A stretch of DNA of 54,585 nt from Rhodospirillales bacterium (GTDB lineage Bacteria > Pseudomonadota > Alphaproteobacteria > Rhodospirillales > UBA2165). Position 1 is the first letter of the stretch; every line of letters starts with the position of its first letter. Shown here piece by piece: positions 1,551 through 10,398 of this stretch. The notes under the pieces are model-generated. The model was not told where the DNA came from and did not search any database. It worked only from the letters and a program-made list of their open reading frames with translations. The stretch covers positions 1 to 54,585 of the forward strand of contig JAYGEH010000054.1 in the NCBI GenBank assembly GCA_046582475.1. The letters run 5' to 3'. A program made the position numbers and the translations under genes.

Positions 1551-1651
1551 TATTTACCGTAACCGGGCCTATTATGACTGGCCTCGGGATCGGTTAATTG
1601 AGAGATTAAGGCGGCGATTTTGTTCGCCAAGTAACTTTGGAATTTGCACCA

Positions 1652-2182
1652 ATGAAAACGATACGCGCAATCATAATTTTTGCTTTCGGCGCCTTTCTGT
1701 TGTCCGCCGCGCCAAACGCCAATGCCGGGCCGGGGCTCAAGCTCTCGGAAAGCGTCAAGGCCGGATTGATGTCCATGCGGCCGGTTCGCGGCCAGCCGGT
1801 CGGGCCTGAATTTTTCGACGGCAAGCCAACCATGGTGATATTCTTCGCCAGTTGGTGAGGCACTTGCCGTTCTGAGTTCGTGCAACTCAGCAACTATCTG
1901 GCGGACGGCGGCGCCGGCGAGCTTAATGTCGTCGCCATCGCCTGGACCGAGGGCCGCTACGGATTTGCCTCGCCGGCGCGCCTGCGCAGCTTCATCAGAG
2001 ATTTCCATCCGTCGATCCGCGTGGTCCATGCCAATCCACGTGTCGAGAAGGATTTTGCGCCGCTGGTCTATGTGCCGGCGAACTTCGCCTTCGACGGCAA
2101 GGGCCGGTTGCGCCTGGGCGACGGCAACCGTATGCATCTCAACCGCAAACAGATTGCCTTTATCGTCGATAAGATAAAATAA
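1652..2182 (+). CDS. TlpA/ResA-like thioredoxin-fold thiol:disulfide oxidoreductase; predicted selenoprotein (UGA 1856-1858 read as Sec)
   Basis: Track ORFs 1637..1858 and 1880..2182 share one frame. The joined protein reads ...GKPTMVIFFASW-U-GTCRSEFVQLSNYL..., so the TGA sits at the first Cys of the WCxxC motif. Signal peptide MKTIRAIIIFAFGAFLLSAAPNANA. A hairpin lies downstream of the TGA. Confidence 0.75.
1872..1890 (+). promoter_or_regulatory. Candidate bacterial SECIS hairpin for the TlpA-like gene
   Basis: CUGAGUU-CGUGC-AACUCAG forms a perfect 7-bp stem with a 5-nt loop containing GU. The stem starts 13 nt after UGA 1856-1858. Confidence 0.55.
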
Positions 2183-5947: not shown

Positions 5948-6640
5948 TTAAGCCATATCGAATATCAGCAGCACCGCCGCCTCGATGGCGGTGATGGTCA
6001 CAGTGTTTATGCCTTCCACCGCCGCGCCGTCGCCGGCGGCGATAATAGCATCGCCCAGGGCTGCCGCCCCGCTGGCCACCTGCACCCAGGCGCGGCGCCC
6101 GGGCGCCAGGCTCAGCGCGGCCTTTTGGCCAGCCTCCAGCTGGCCCGAATAGAGCCGCAAATCGGCGTGGATGGCAACGCCGCCTTCGGGCCGCAGCGGC
6201 GCGCCGATCAAGGTCAGCCCGGCGCCGGCGCCATTGAGAGACATCTGCTCGTAGCCCGGCTCGAGCCCGATCTCGGCGGGCCTGATCCAGATTTGCAGGG
6301 AATGGCTGATCTCGGTCTGCGACGAATTATATTCAGAATGGACAACGCCGGTGCCGGCGCTCATGCGCTGAATTTCGCCTTCGCCGATGCGCCCCTTGCC
6401 GCCGGTGGAATCTTCGTGGCGCATGCCGCCGGCCACCATAAAGGTGACAATCTCCATATCCTGGTGCGGGTGCATGGGAAACCCCTGGCCCGGCTGGATG
6501 ATCGTTTCGGCGATGGAGATCAGCGCGCCATAGCCGTTTGGGCGGGGATCAACGGAATTGTCGGCGGCGAAGCTGCGGATGATTTGCACCCAGCCCCGGT
6601 CGGTAGTGATACGGTCGCCGCTTTTGAATTTCTCGATCAT
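5948..6640 (-). CDS. Pirin family protein (second paralogue)
   Basis: Starts [17 protein letters not shown] and carries [19 protein letters not shown]. Its ATG (6640-6638) overlaps the tgt stop TGA (6639-6637). Confidence 0.9.
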
Positions 6641-7761
6641 GGTTCGATATCGCCCAAAGCTTGGCGGCTGTGAAATTCCTTGGCAAATTCTTCGAGCCCG
6701 CCGGCCTCGATGGCGGCGCGGAGACCCGTCATCAGGTCCTGATAATACTGCAGATTGTGCCAGGTCAAAAGCATCGGCCCGAGAATTTCGTCGGCCTTGA
6801 AAAGATGGTGCAGGTAGGCACGGCTGTGCCCGGTGCAGGCCGGGCAGGTGCAGGCCGCATCGATGGGGCGCGCATCCTCGGCGTGGCGGGCATTGCGGAT
6901 ATTGATCGATCCCCGGGGGGTGAAGCCCTTGCCGGTGCGCCCGGACCGGGTCGGCATGACGCAATCGAACATATCGATGCCGCGCGCCACGGCGCCGACC
7001 AGATCGGCGGGCGTGCCGACGCCCATCAAATAGCGCGGCCGCGCCTCGGGCAAATGGGTTACCAATCCATCCAGGACGCCGAACATCACCTCCTGGCCCT
7101 CGCCGATGGCGAGGCCGCCGACGGCGTAACCATCGAAGCCGATCGCGGTCAGCGCCGCCGCCGATTGCTGGCGAAGATCATCGAACACGCCGCCCTGGAC
7201 AATGCCGAACAAGCCATAGCCGGGGCGCACCCGGAAGGCGGACTTGGAGCGTTCCGCCCAGCGGTGGGTCAGTTCCATGGATTTGGCGATGGCGTCCTTG
7301 TCGCCGCTCATGGCAGGGCATTCGTCCAGCACCATGGTCACGTCGGCGTCCAGCAGGCGCTGAATTTCCACCGAGCTTTCCGGGCTCAGGGTGTGGCTGG
7401 CGCCATCGATATGGGATTGGAAGGTGACGCCGTCCTCGGTCATGGTGCGCAGCTTGGAAAGCGACATCACCTGGAAGCCGCCGGAATCGGTCAGGATCGG
7501 GCCCGGCCAATTCATGAATTCGTGCAGTCCGCCGAGGCGCTCAATGGTTTCGGCGCCGGGGCGCAGCATCAGATGATAGGTGTTGCCGAGCACCATTTCG
7601 GCGCCGGTGGCGGCGACCGCCTCGGAGGTCATGGCCTTCACCGTGCCCGCCGTACCCACGGGCATGAAGGCCGGCGTTTCCAATGTGCCGTGATTGGTGC
7701 TTAATCGGCCCCGGCGGGCGGCGCCGTCCCTGGCCAGAATTTCATAGGCGAAACCGCTCAT
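6637..7761 (-). CDS. tgt: tRNA-guanine(34) transglycosylase
   Basis: MSGFAYEI...[16 protein letters not shown], and the Zn site [17 protein letters not shown]. The longer track ORF up to 8115 is an upstream artefact. Confidence 0.95.
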
Positions 7762-8792
7762 TACCCATTCCGTTCCAGCAAGCAGGCATCGCCGTAGGAG
7801 AAGAATCGGTAGCGCGCTTTTATGGCGTGGGCGTAGGCGGCGCGCATGCGCTCCAGCCCGGCGAAGGCGGCGACCAACATAAAAAGGGTGGAGCGCGGCA
7901 GATGAAAATTGGTGACCATGGCATCGGCAATTTTGAAGCGGTATCCGGGCGTCATAAAGATATCGGTCTCGCCGGTAAAGGGGGCCAGGCGCCCATCCGC
8001 GCCGGCCGCCGTTTCCAGGAGCCGGAGCGCGGTGGAACCGGCGGCGACGATACGCCCGCCGGCCTGCCGCGCCCCGTTGATGGCCGCCGCCGCCGCCTCG
8101 CTGATCTCGCCCCATTCGGTGTGCATGACGTGATCTCGGGTATCGTCCACCTTCACCGGCAGAAACGTCCCGGCGCCCACATGCAGGGTGACGAGCGTAT
8201 TGTTTACGCCGCGCGTGGCCAGCGCATCGATGATCGCCGGCGTGAAATGCAGGCCCGCCGTCGGCGCCGCGACGGCGCCGGGGCGCGCCGCGAACAAGGT
8301 CTGGTAATCGGCGATGTCGGCCGCCGCGCCGGTTTTAGGCCGCTTGATATAGGGCGGCAGGGGCATGATGCCGTGCCGGTCCAACTTGGCCAGCAGCGGC
8401 GCGCGGCCGAGCCCGAATTCCAGCCGCACTTCGCCGCCGTCCCGCTTCTCGGCGACCCGTGCCTTGAAATCCGGCGCGAAGGTTATTGTATCGCCGATGC
8501 GCAACCGTTTGGCGGGCCGGGCGAAGGCCCACCAGCCGCCGCCGGACACCTCTTTATGCAGGGTCACTTCCACATTGGCTTCGCCGCGCCGGCCGGTGAG
8601 GCGCGACGGGATCACGCTTGTATTGTTGCACACCAGCATATCGCCGGCCCGCAGCAGGTCAGGCAAATCGGTGATCTTGTGATCGGTAAAACTGGCATCC
8701 ACGTGCAAAAGCCGCGCCGCGTCCCTCGGGCGCGCCGGATGCTGGGCGATCAAATCCTGGGGCAATTCGAAATCAAATCCATCGACGCGCAT
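7761..8792 (-). CDS. queA: S-adenosylmethionine:tRNA ribosyltransferase-isomerase
   Basis: 343 aa with [23 protein letters not shown] and [10 protein letters not shown]. The stop TAA (7763-7761) overlaps the tgt ATG by 1 nt. Confidence 0.95.
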
Positions 8793-8861
8793 GACCAGCC
8801 GGACCGTATCGGATGCGTCGTTGCCTCACAATGAGTGATTAGTGGTGCGCCTTGATATAAG

Positions 8862-9311
8862 ATGCCGGCCATGATCGACGACATCTACAACACCGAAGTC
8901 TTGCGCCTGGCGGCCCATATCTCGCGCATCGATCCGTTGCCAAGCGCGGACGCCGAGGCCGCGCTCAGGAGCCCCCTTTGCGGCTCGACCATCGCCGTGC
9001 AGATCTGCGTGGCGGATGGGCGCATCACCGATTATGCCCAGGAGGTGAAGGCCTGCGCCCTCGGCCAGGCCGCCGCCTCGGTGATGGCGTCCGAAGTGAT
9101 TGGCAAGGATGGGTTGGAAATCGCGGCGGTTCGCAGCCAGATGGAAGCTATGCTGAAAAGCGATAGCGCGCCGCCGGACGGTGACTGGGCGGACCTGGCG
9201 GCACTGGCCCCGGCGGCGGAAGCGAAATCCCGCCACGGCGCCATCCTGCTGCCCTTTGATGCGGTGCTGAAAGCCTTCGCCGAGATCAAGGCGGCGGCCG
9301 CTTCAGGATAA
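8862..9311 (+). CDS. NifU-N/IscU-like iron-sulfur cluster scaffold family protein
   Basis: 149 aa with MIDDIYNTEVLRLAAHI...SPLCGSTI...ACALGQAAASV...RHGAILLPFDA, typical of the short alphaproteobacterial NifU_N-type proteins. Confidence 0.75.
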   Translation: MPAMIDDIYNTEVLRLAAHISRIDPLPSADAEAALRSPLCGSTIAVQICVADGRITDYAQEVKACALGQAAASVMASEVIGKDGLEIAAVRSQMEAMLKSDSAPPDGDWADLAALAPAAEAKSRHGAILLPFDAVLKAFAEIKAAAASG

Positions 9312-9348: not shown

Positions 9349-10398
9349 TCAACTCTCGACCGTCACCCGGGCTTCGCCTTCGCACATTTCGCCGACCACC
9401 GAGGCGTAGCCGTAGCCCTGTTCCTTGAACAGCGCCAGGACTGCATCGACGGCGCCGGCATCGCAGCTCACCACCAGGCCGCCCGAGGTTTGCGGGTCCA
9501 TCAACAGGTTCCTCTGCCACGCTTCGATGCCGTCAAAGGTGGTGACGTGATCGGTAAAGCTGTCCCAATTGCGGTTGGCGGCGCCGGTGTTGTAGCCTTT
9601 CTGCGCATAATCGGCGGCGCCCGCCAGGAGCGGCAGCTTGTCCCAAGACAGCGTGGCGCCAAGGCCGGCGCCCTTGCACATTTCGTAGGTGTGGCCGCAA
9701 AGACCGAAGCCGGTGATGTCGGTGATGGCGTTGACGCCGTCCAATTGGGCCAGATCGGCGCCGACCGAATTCAATTTGACAGCGCTTTCGACCATCACTG
9801 CGTAGCCGTCGGGACCGAGCTCGTCCTTGTTCAGTGCGGCGCCGAAAATGCCGACGCCCAATCCCTTGCCGAGGATCAAAACGTCGCCCGCCTTGCCGTC
9901 GCAGTTGCGCATGATGTGGTCGGGGTGAACCAGGCCGACAACCGCCAGGCCGTAGATCGGCTCCGGACTGTCGATGGTATGGCCGCCGGCCACCGGGATA
10001 TTGGCCTCGCCGCACAAATCAGCGCCGCCGGAGAATATCCGGGCCACCATTTCCGGCGGCATGATGTCGGCCGGGAAGCCGGCGATGGCCAGGGCCAGGA
10101 TCGGCGTGCCGCCGGTGGCGTAGATATCGGACAAGGCGTTGGCCGCCGCGATGCGGCCGAAATCGTAGGGGTCGTCGACGATGGGCATGAAGAAATCGGT
10201 CGACACCACCACCGCTTGGGTATCGTTGATTTTGTAGACAGCCGAATCATCGCCGGTCTCGACGCCCACCAGCAGATTGGGGAAGCGCGCCTGCGGCGGT
10301 AATCCGGATAACATCTTCTCAAGCACCGACGGTGCTATTTTGCAGCCTCAACCGCCCCCGTGAGAGAGCTCGGTCAGCCTAACGACCTGCGTGTCCAT
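9349..10398 (-). CDS. selD: Selenide, water dikinase (selenophosphate synthetase), Sec-containing form (UGA at 10350-10348)
   Basis: The track ORF starts at GTG 10326. Reading upstream in frame gives [30 protein letters not shown]..., which reproduces the SelD glycine-rich loop with TGA where E. coli has Cys17. Downstream motifs are LLVGVETGDDSAVY and VAGGHTID. Confidence 0.85.
10322..10336 (-). promoter_or_regulatory. Candidate SECIS hairpin inside selD
   Basis: On the minus strand, AGCAC(C)-GUC-(G)GUGCU forms a 5-6 bp stem. It begins 11 nt after the UGA and has GU in the apical loop. Confidence 0.5.

What the first reader, a model, noticed from the sequence alone, without database searches (positions are those of the whole stretch)
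1652..2182. Periplasmic TlpA-like thioredoxin-fold protein with UGA at the first redox cysteine (W-U-G-T-C): a likely unannotated selenoprotein
Two track ORFs (1637..1858 and 1880..2182) lie in one frame. They are separated only by TGA 1856-1858 and seven sense codons.
- The joined sequence reads ...MVIFFASW[TGA]GTCRSEFVQL..., so the stop sits exactly where thioredoxin-fold oxidoreductases carry the nucleophilic Cys of CxxC.
- A perfect 7-bp hairpin (CUGAGUU/AACUCAG, loop CGUGC) begins 13 nt downstream. That position and the G/U in the loop are what is expected for a bacterial SECIS.
- The same window contains a selD that also needs UGA recoding, so Sec decoding appears to operate in this genome.
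An ORF caller would report two fragments or a pseudogene.
Basis: partly seen in the sequence, partly recalled or inferred. Interest (0 to 1): 0.7.

Follow-up and report, generated by a model that had tools for sequence, protein, structure and literature searches.

The report
Periplasmic TlpA-like selenoprotein gene
The two small ORFs are one gene for an exported thioredoxin-like redox enzyme whose active-site cysteine is replaced by selenocysteine, encoded by a UGA "stop"; this is a real but ordinary kind of selenoprotein that databases currently mis-annotate as a truncated hypothetical protein.

Summary
ATG 1652 to TAA 2182 is one frame, broken only by TGA 1856-1858 (W-U-G-T-C). A perfect 7-bp hairpin (1872-1890, loop CGUGC) starts 13 nt downstream.

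- **TGA conservation:** all 66 related loci that cover the site, mostly marine alphaproteobacterial MAGs down to about 35% identity, carry TGA at this codon. None has TGC or TGT.
- **Coding signal:** third-position variation runs in the same frame on both sides of the TGA.
- **RNA selection:** the five codons forming the hairpin core (GAG TTC GTG CAA CTC) show essentially no synonymous variation. The sixth base pair covaries through five pair types and is never broken.
- **Cys homologues:** more distant relatives read FFASW-C-xx-C and place their first Cys on the TGA.
- **Fold:** a profile matches ResA/TlpA/DsbE structures (E about 1e-14). An AlphaFold2 model (pLDDT 87) is closest to ResA and puts the Sec just before helix α1.
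- **Genome context:** selD in the same window is also UGA-encoded, and UGA ends 16 of 40 other genes.

I conclude this is a genuine UxxC selenoprotein with a bacterial SECIS. TlpA-like and Trx-like UxxC selenoproteins have been known since 2005, so it is a new, unannotated subfamily of a known kind. selA, selB and tRNA-Sec could not be checked.

The parts
1652..2182 (+). Complete selenoprotein CDS of 176 codons including Sec69, with stop TAA 2180-2182
   Evidence: Single frame. It is collinear with full-length Cys homologues and with ResA/TlpA structures. Third-position variation follows the same frame on both sides of the UGA.
1652..1726 (+). Predicted N-terminal signal peptide MKTIRAIIIFAFGAFLLSAAPNANA, with an AxA site before GPGL
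   Evidence: Read by inspection. Every family member starts M-K/R, then a hydrophobic run, then a small-x-small motif. The AF2 model has low pLDDT for residues 1-30. No signal-peptide predictor was available.
1856..1858 (+). UGA codon read as selenocysteine (Sec69), first position of the U-G-T-C redox motif (1856-1867)
   Evidence: TGA in 66 of 66 informative related loci. It aligns with the first Cys of FFASW-C-xx-C in Cys homologues and of WCxxC in PDB ResA and 3ia1. It lies between strand 60-65 and helix 71-84 of the model.
1872..1890 (+). SECIS hairpin: 5' arm CUGAGUU 1872-1878, apical loop CGUGC 1879-1883, 3' arm AACUCAG 1884-1890. The family-wide core is the inner 6 bp (1873-1889).
   Evidence: Five invariant base pairs, plus a sixth with five pair types (GC10, UA7, CG4, AU3, UG2) and no broken cell. 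RNAalifold predicts it. Codon entropy is 0 for GAG TTC GTG CAA CTC. The distant member L037 keeps the stem through GAAUU/AAUUC. The Cys homologues L036 and L038 lack it.
1844..1859 (+). Nucleotide-constrained stretch TTC GCC AGT TGG TGA G. It may form a mini-hairpin UUCGCC / AGUU / GGUGAG with the UGA in its 3' arm. Its role is unresolved.
   Evidence: Low synonymous variation at codons -4 to -2. RNAalifold helix with 98.7% of cells paired, but only one-sided changes. Predicted in 4 of the 7 single-sequence MFE folds. One pair is broken by GCA in distant members.
2075..2077 (+). Codon for Pro142, the candidate cis-proline of the thioredoxin fold (motif LVYVPANF)
   Evidence: Invariant in Sec and Cys forms. 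It aligns with the conserved Pro of ResA and 2m72.
9349..10398 (-). selD (selenophosphate synthetase), itself UGA-encoded: ATG 10398-10396, UGA 10350-10348 (codon 17), hairpin AGCACC-GUC-GGUGCU 10336-10322. It supports Sec decoding in this genome.
   Evidence: NCBIfam SelD equivalog, 429.6 bits, starting at profile position 25 for the part after the UGA. Context GGG-U-GCK. Sequence and fold.

Best explanation
Positions 1652-2182 encode one 176-residue exported thiol-disulfide oxidoreductase of the TlpA/ResA-like branch of the thioredoxin superfamily. Its N-terminal nucleophile in the CxxC motif is selenocysteine (W-U-G-T-C).

**Shown or strongly supported by comparison:**
- UGA 1856-1858 is a sense codon under purifying selection.
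- The hairpin 1872-1890 is selected at the RNA level. It has a bacterial SECIS layout: it sits immediately 3' of the UGA, has a 6-7 bp stem, and has a 5-nt apical loop containing G-U about 20 nt after the UGA.

**Inferred from the established bacterial pathway:**
- SelB·GTP·Sec-tRNASec binds the loop while the ribosome has UGA in the A site, and inserts Sec in competition with RF2.
- After Sec-dependent export and signal-peptide cleavage, the Sec69 selenolate attacks a substrate disulfide or sulfenate.
- Cys72 resolves the mixed selenenylsulfide.
- The resulting Se-S bond is re-reduced by a membrane electron conduit of the CcdA/DsbD type.

The substrate is unknown, and no conserved gene neighbour points to one.
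For: - **Observation:** confirmed exactly.
- **Homologue lengths:** all 24 homologues found by word search are about 100-aa fragments that begin at the GTG inside the hairpin loop. The gene is therefore split at the same place everywhere.
- **TGA conservation:** TGA sits at the same codon in 66 of 66 informative loci, covering 50 distinct 309-nt sequences.
- **Coding periodicity in one frame on both sides:** entropy at codon positions 1/2/3 is 0.89/0.65/1.49 upstream and 0.83/0.62/1.38 downstream.
- **Hairpin:** five invariant pairs plus one pair with five pair types and no unpaired cell. The covariation score is 0.214 against 0.063 for shuffles (0 of 500 reach it). Slid-register controls pair in only 26-45% of cells. 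Codon entropy is 0 for E-F-V-Q-L, against 1-1.9 bits for other invariant residues. A distant member shows a compensatory GAAUU/AAUUC stem.
- **Cys homologues:** FFASW-C-[AP]P-C aligns on the U. These proteins pass the Pfam Redoxin and AhpC-TSA thresholds.
- **Structure:** the profile against PDB gives ResA, TlpA and DsbE at E = 4e-14 to 1e-10 over residues 40-171. The AF2 model has pLDDT 87.4 and pTM 0.81, with U69 between strand 60-65 and helix 71-84. Foldseek's top hit is ResA 1su9 (E = 1e-8, TM 0.77 normalised to the target).
- **Genome context:** selD in the window needs UGA recoding too. UGA terminates 16 of 40 assigned genes, so there is no code reassignment.
Against: - No selA, selB or tRNA-Sec lies in the 54.6-kb window. 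The rest of the genome is not available.
- There is no Rfam hit. Rfam's bacterial SECIS models are few, so this is weak evidence.
- The hairpin's folding energy in a single sequence is not exceptional (z = -0.32).
- I saw no bulged U like the one in the E. coli fdhF SECIS (comparison from my own knowledge).
- The window protein itself scores just under Pfam's Redoxin threshold (25.7 against 26.6 bits).
- No experimental evidence of Se incorporation exists.
Confidence: 0.92

Rival explanations
1. Two independent small genes, as gene callers annotate them: a peptide of about 68 aa ending at TGA 1858, and a 100-aa protein starting at GTG 1880.
For: Gene callers in public assemblies consistently call a 67-70 aa ORF and a 100-aa ORF. 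The GTG is conserved in nearly all members.
Against: The joined sequence is collinear with single-chain Cys homologues and with ResA/TlpA structures, and the break falls inside the CxxC active site. The GTG sits in the loop of a conserved hairpin, and its conservation is explained by the RNA. The seven codons between TGA and GTG, including the resolving Cys, are conserved as protein.
Confidence: 0.02
2. A pseudogene or a sequencing or assembly error. The TGA would be a nonsense lesion of an ancestral TGC/TGT.
For: A single-base change converts TGC or TGT to TGA. Two relatives (L032, L066) show other lesions.
Against: TGA occurs at the same codon in 66 of 66 loci from independent samples and in 50 distinct sequences. 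Purifying selection acts on both sides. None of these loci has TGC or TGT.
Confidence: 0.01
3. UGA is recoded, but not to selenocysteine. This could be read-through by a near-cognate or suppressor tRNA (Trp/Cys/Gly) stimulated by the downstream hairpin, or a local code change.
For: Sequence alone cannot tell which residue is inserted. No Sec-specific factor other than selD was seen in the window.
Against: UGA is a normal stop for 16 of 40 genes here. The codon replaces a redox Cys, which is the classic Sec/Cys pair. The hairpin has SECIS spacing and a G-U loop, like the one after the selD UGA in the same window. A Sec-containing SelD makes sense only in a Sec-decoding organism.
Confidence: 0.04

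Closest known systems
TlpA-like 'thiol-disulfide isomerase-like' UxxC selenoproteins (cd02966 / PF13905), predicted from the Sargasso Sea metagenome; also the Prx-like and Trx-like UxxC selenoprotein groups of the GOS survey (PMC1088965, PMC2398784; table in review PMC13188914)
   Same: They are exported or lipoprotein-type thioredoxin-fold proteins from marine bacteria. Sec replaces the first Cys of CxxC, a bacterial SECIS follows the UGA, and Cys homologues are widespread.
   Different: This is a different subfamily. The current representative MDP6341533.1 shares only 27% identity over 67 N-terminal residues. The Sargasso sequences read DW-U-TWC. A GOS Prx-like 3 read matches only 27 residues around the motif. 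The family signatures FFASWU...EFVQL, WTEGRYG and LVYVPA were not found in the held supplements, though the GOS file is truncated. No NCBIfam model reaches its cutoff.
ResA / TlpA / CcmG (DsbE) / StoA extracytoplasmic thiol-disulfide reductases (Cys enzymes; PDB 1su9, 1jfu, 4txo, 2b1k, 3erw)
   Same: The fold matches (Foldseek E = 1e-8 to 1e-6; profile E about 1e-14). The WCxxC position, the conserved Pro before strand β4 and the N-terminal export or anchor sequence also match. The expected chemistry is a nucleophile plus a resolving Cys.
   Different: Sec replaces Cys as the nucleophile. Scores are far below the equivalog cutoffs: TlpA 22.8 against 230 bits, DsbE 27.1 against 123, StoA 28.9 against 210. 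ResA's model appears only for a relative, at 30.6 against 170. There is no linkage to ccm, sco or cox genes in any locus. The N-terminus looks like a cleavable signal rather than a membrane anchor.
Bacterial SECIS element (E. coli fdhF/fdnG type; consensus used by bSECISearch)
   Same: The stem-loop lies inside the coding region immediately 3' of the UGA. It has a small apical loop containing G (here C-G-U-G-C), and the loop starts 20 nt after the UGA. [quoted passage not shown] The 16-37 nt spacing range is from my own recollection of bSECISearch.
   Different: The window's stem is perfect, with no bulged U. Its sequence is unusually invariant across the family, and this fixes the peptide E-F-V-Q-L. 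There is extra nucleotide-level constraint on the four codons upstream of the UGA.

Membership tests
Bacterial selenoprotein gene (Sec-UGA plus bacterial SECIS) | In-frame UGA conserved among orthologues, with coding selection on both sides | tested here: met
   TGA in 66 of 66 informative loci, and same-frame periodicity upstream and downstream.
Bacterial selenoprotein gene (Sec-UGA plus bacterial SECIS) | Homologues carry Cys at the position aligned with the UGA | tested here: met
   P0030, P0045, P0047, P0049, P0050, P0052 and P0055 have FFASW-C / FWATW-C aligned with U69. DNA confirms TGT and TGC in L036 and L038.
Bacterial selenoprotein gene (Sec-UGA plus bacterial SECIS) | Stem-loop immediately downstream of the UGA with a small apical loop containing G | tested here: met
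   A 7-bp stem at 1872-1890 with loop CGUGC, 13 nt after the UGA. It is conserved, with covariation at the sixth pair and zero synonymous variation in the core. bSECISearch itself was not available.
Bacterial selenoprotein gene (Sec-UGA plus bacterial SECIS) | Genome encodes the Sec machinery (selA, selB, tRNA-Sec, selD) | tested here: inconclusive
   selD is present and is itself UGA-encoded. There is no tRNA and no selA or selB among about 45 genes scanned in the window. The rest of the genome cannot be accessed.
Bacterial selenoprotein gene (Sec-UGA plus bacterial SECIS) | Selenium is actually incorporated at the UGA | not testable with these tools
   This needs 75Se labelling or mass spectrometry.
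Thioredoxin superfamily, TlpA-like branch (cd02966; Pfam Redoxin / AhpC-TSA / Thioredoxin_8) | Thioredoxin fold with the TlpA/ResA-type insertion | tested here: met
   AF2 gives pLDDT 87.4 and pTM 0.81. Foldseek's top hits are ResA, Mtb DsbE/DsbF, TlpA, StoA, CcmG and Etrx. The profile against PDB gives E = 4e-14.
Thioredoxin superfamily, TlpA-like branch (cd02966; Pfam Redoxin / AhpC-TSA / Thioredoxin_8) | C/UxxC motif at the N-terminus of helix α1, plus a conserved (cis-)Pro | tested here: met
   U69-G-T-C72 lies between strand 60-65 and helix 71-84. It aligns with WCxxC of ResA and 3ia1. Pro142 is invariant.
Thioredoxin superfamily, TlpA-like branch (cd02966; Pfam Redoxin / AhpC-TSA / Thioredoxin_8) | Pfam gathering threshold reached | tested here: inconclusive
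   With C at position 69, the window protein scores 25.7 bits for Redoxin against a cutoff of 26.6, and 20.7 for AhpC-TSA against 26. Its Cys homologues pass both.
Named equivalogs TlpA (NF047696), DsbE/CcmG (TIGR00385), ResA (NF002854), StoA (NF041202), WAxxUGC ResA-like selenoprotein (NF041054) | Score at or above the NCBIfam curated cutoff | tested here: not met
   The window protein scores 16-29 bits against cutoffs of 97-522 bits. ResA (30.6 against 170) and WAxxUGC (18.2 against 300) appear only for the relative tested alongside it. It is not a member of any of these families.
Sargasso 'thiol-disulfide isomerase-like' selenoprotein family (representative MDP6341533.1) | Full-length sequence similarity to the family representative | tested here: not met
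   BLASTP gives 27% identity over 67 residues only. The Sargasso reads have a different motif context, DW-U-TWC.

The most novel reading that the evidence does not exclude
This clade may be an obligate-Sec lineage with a two-part recoding signal. One part is an almost invariant SECIS that dictates the peptide E-F-V-Q-L. The other would be a second conserved RNA feature: the four codons upstream of the UGA, possibly forming a mini-hairpin UUCGCC/AGUU/GGUGAR that holds the UGA in its 3' arm, or pairing alternatively with the SECIS 3' arm. Such a feature could tune UGA decoding against RF2 termination. That would be a new variant of bacterial SECIS architecture.
Probability: 0.12. Interest if true: 0.6.

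Novelty: new member of a known kind. Interest (0 to 1): 0.38.

Why it matters
- **Annotation:** the finding corrects a systematic error. In GenBank MAGs and metagenome gene calls, this gene appears as a 67-70 aa ORF plus a 100-aa 'hypothetical protein' that starts at the GTG inside the SECIS loop. No NCBIfam model would rescue it.
- **Selenoproteome:** it adds a well-supported subfamily of exported Sec-containing thiol-disulfide oxidoreductases to the marine alphaproteobacterial selenoproteome.
- **SECIS models:** it provides 50 distinct natural sequences of one SECIS with clean covariation, which could improve bacterial SECIS models.
- **Limits:** it changes no concept. UxxC thioredoxin-fold selenoproteins are the commonest class of predicted bacterial selenoproteins.

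Tried and rejected
- **Rfam:** a gathering-threshold scan of the window and a permissive scan of 1780-1960 found only chance-level hits. One was a eukaryotic SECIS_1 match on the wrong strand at E = 6.4. This is uninformative for bacterial SECIS.
- **Single-sequence folding energy:** not significant for the 50-nt stretch, so I did not rely on it.
- **Restricted tools:** I used the post-UGA part instead. Writing X at the Sec position made the joined protein acceptable for structure prediction.
- **Conserved synteny or partner genes:** none found. Neighbours differ in every lineage.
- **tRNA-Sec:** absent from the window and from 29 related loci.
- **Other split selenoprotein genes in the window:** a screen for TGA flanked on both sides by high third-position GC (GC3) found no convincing candidates. 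The screen also missed the target and selD, so it has low sensitivity.
- **Published sequence sets:** the family signatures were not found in the held supplements of the Sargasso, GOS and deep-Sep papers. The GOS file is truncated and the BSepDB tables are not held, so prior listing cannot be excluded.
- **Promoter and terminator scan of 1400-2400:** nothing found.
- **Extended lower SECIS stem (pairs 7 and 8):** the seventh pair holds in 18 of 26 sequences and the eighth in 11 of 26. These pairs are not part of the conserved core.

Full report
**Observation**

The sequence is as described.
- ATG 1652 opens a frame that runs to TAA 2180-2182. Its only interruption is TGA 1856-1858, in the context ...MVIFFASW-[TGA]-GTCRSEFVQL....
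- The hairpin CTGAGTT (1872-1878) / CGTGC (1879-1883) / AACTCAG (1884-1890) begins 13 nt after the TGA.
- Taken alone, the hairpin is only mildly unusual. The 50-nt fold has z = -0.32, and 10 of 1369 TGA trinucleotides in the window (0.7%) have a comparable perfect hairpin by chance.
- The case therefore rests on comparison with related sequences.

**Conservation of the UGA**

A search of 5.8 billion proteins with the joined sequence returned 24 homologues at 46-98% identity.
- Twenty-three are about 100-aa C-terminal fragments, all beginning at V/M-Q-L. That start is the GTG inside the hairpin loop. The 24th, P0007 (163 aa), matches only 42% of the query and was not examined further.
- I fetched the DNA for several of them. 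I also scanned 185,579 species-representative genomes (25 loci) and JGI metagenomes (30 loci).
- Every locus covering the site has TGA at the same codon: 66 of 66 loci, giving 50 distinct 309-nt sequences. None has TGC or TGT.
- The hosts in the genome scan are MAGs labelled Rhodospirillaceae, Rhodospirillales, Hyphomicrobiales, Methyloligellaceae, Rickettsiales or Alphaproteobacteria.
- Mean column entropy at codon positions 1/2/3 is 0.89/0.65/1.49 for the 42 codons upstream and 0.83/0.62/1.38 for the 60 codons downstream. Both halves are translated in the same frame.
- UGA ends 16 of 40 family-assigned genes in the window, so the genetic code is standard.

**The hairpin is selected as RNA**

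- In 26 distinct sequences (alignment A2), the five inner pairs GAGUU/AACUC never vary.
- The sixth pair takes five forms (GC 10, UA 7, CG 4, AU 3, UG 2) and is never unpaired.
- The covariation score is 0.214 against 0.063 for shuffles, and 0 of 500 shuffles reach it. Slid registers pair in only 26-45% of cells.
- RNAalifold predicts the same helix.
- The five codons GAG TTC GTG CAA CTC have zero synonymous entropy. Equally conserved residues elsewhere, such as those of PLVYVPANF, have about 0.8-1.7 bits.
- A distant member (L037, about 35% identity) changes the 'invariant' part compensatorily, to CCGAAUU / CGUGCA / AAUUCGG, together with a Leu-to-Ile change.
- Loop variants are CGUGG, CGGGC, CGAGC, CGGGG and CGUGCA. 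All keep G at the second loop position.
- The Cys homologues L036 and L038 lack both the hairpin and the V-Q dipeptide.
- The apical loop starts 20 nt after the UGA. That agrees with the published description of bacterial SECIS elements as stem-loops immediately 3' of the UGA with a small G-containing apical loop (PMC1088965).
- Rfam gives no hit.

**The protein**

- An exhaustive HMMER search with the post-UGA part found full-length relatives of 176-199 aa. Seven of them were aligned: six carry FFASW-C-[AP]P-C or FWATW-C-PP-C, and P0030 has C-P-P-Y. Their first Cys aligns with the UGA.
- These proteins pass the Pfam Redoxin and AhpC-TSA thresholds. The window protein falls just short, at 25.7 against 26.6 bits.
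- A profile of Sec and Cys forms matches ResA, TlpA, DsbE, StoA and related structures at E = 4e-14 to 1e-10 over residues 40-171.
- An AlphaFold2 model has pLDDT 87.4 and pTM 0.81. It places U69 between strand 60-65 and helix 71-84, the canonical CxxC location.
- The model's best structural neighbours are ResA, M. tuberculosis DsbE/DsbF, TlpA, StoA, CcmG and Etrx.
- All members start with M-K/R, a hydrophobic stretch and a small-x-small site. This indicates export, by inspection only.
- No NCBIfam equivalog cutoff is approached. The protein belongs to the TlpA-like superfamily but is not TlpA, ResA or CcmG.
- Gene neighbourhoods differ in every lineage, so the substrate is unknown.

**Sec decoding in this genome**

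- selD (10398-9349, minus strand) has UGA at codon 17 in the context GGG-U-GCK. It is followed 11 nt later by AGCACC-GUC-GGUGCU.
- A SelD that is itself a selenoprotein implies a working Sec system.
- selA, selB and tRNA-Sec are not among the roughly 45 genes of the window and could not be sought elsewhere.

**Mechanism**

- Shown: a conserved sense UGA, an RNA-selected SECIS-like hairpin, a TlpA-like fold, and Sec at the nucleophile position.
- Inferred from the established bacterial pathway: SelB-dependent insertion at the UGA; export; selenolate attack on a substrate disulfide or sulfenate; resolution by Cys72; and re-reduction through a CcdA/DsbD-type conduit.

**Comparison with what is known**

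- UxxC thioredoxin-fold selenoproteins are the largest class of predicted bacterial selenoproteins. They include TlpA-like 'thiol-disulfide isomerase-like' proteins (PMC1088965, PMC2398784, PMC13188914).
- This family is a separate subfamily. It shares 27% identity over 67 residues with the current representative, and only active-site similarity with a GOS Prx-like 3 read.
- Its signatures are absent from the held supplements, which are incomplete.
- Public annotation lists only fragments named 'hypothetical protein'.
- Verdict: a real selenoprotein gene, a new member of a known kind, of moderate interest.

**Unexplained**

- The four codons before the UGA (TTC GCC AGT TGG) also show reduced synonymous variation. 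Ser is AGT in 24 of 26 sequences, although the other conserved Ser column in the gene (column 88 of the codon alignment) is always TCN.
- RNAalifold pairs UUCGCC with GGUGAR, which puts the UGA in a 6-bp mini-hairpin. Of its cells, 98.7% are paired, but only one-sided changes occur.
- Distant members with GCA break one of these pairs.
- AGUUG is also complementary to CAACU in the SECIS 3' arm (L008).
- Whether this reflects codon context, a second RNA element or an alternative fold is open.

Noticed in passing
window 9349-10398 (-): selD is itself a selenoprotein. UGA lies at 10350-10348 (codon 17, GGG-U-GCK), with a 6-bp hairpin AGCACC-GUC-GGUGCU at 10336-10322, 11 nt downstream. ORF callers would truncate its N-terminus.
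   Followed up: partly
window 1844-1859 (+): There is nucleotide-level constraint on the four codons upstream of the Sec codon (TTC GCC AGT TGG). They may form a mini-hairpin that encloses the UGA. The same AGUUG could instead pair with CAACU of the SECIS 3' arm.
   Followed up: partly
L036 about 930-2046 (ENA ERZ27247699 k141_1128075): Tandem paralogues. A Sec form (FFASW-U-PPC-YAEFGEL, loop CGGGG) is directly followed by a Cys form (P0030, FFASW-C-PP-Y, codon TGT) whose resolving Cys is replaced by Tyr.
   Followed up: partly
L032 about 1783 and L066 about 400-700: L032 has TAC (Tyr) in place of the resolving Cys and a CGAGC loop. L066 has additional in-frame stops. These may be decaying copies or low-quality assemblies.
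   Followed up: no
L016 and L019 (MAG SRP077602_co11_112, contigs CAZMHI010000089.1 and CAZMHI010000070.1): One MAG carries two copies of the family on different contigs.
   Followed up: no
window 8856-9311 (+): A NifU_N/SufU-like ORF lies between queA and the Sec-containing selD. It scores below the SufU equivalog cutoff (57.5 against 92.5 bits). A link to selenium or sulfur delivery is possible but was not examined.
   Followed up: no
window 6637-8115 (-) and 7761-8792 (-): The longest tgt ORF (492 aa) overlaps queA by about 350 nt, and its Tgt match starts at residue 124. The real tgt start is probably near 7746.
   Followed up: no
P0009 (ISR52_02230) and P0018 (GKS00_09015), GenBank MAG proteins: Public annotation of this family consists of 100-aa 'hypothetical protein' entries that start at the GTG inside the SECIS loop. 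No full-length or U-containing entry was returned.
   Followed up: yes
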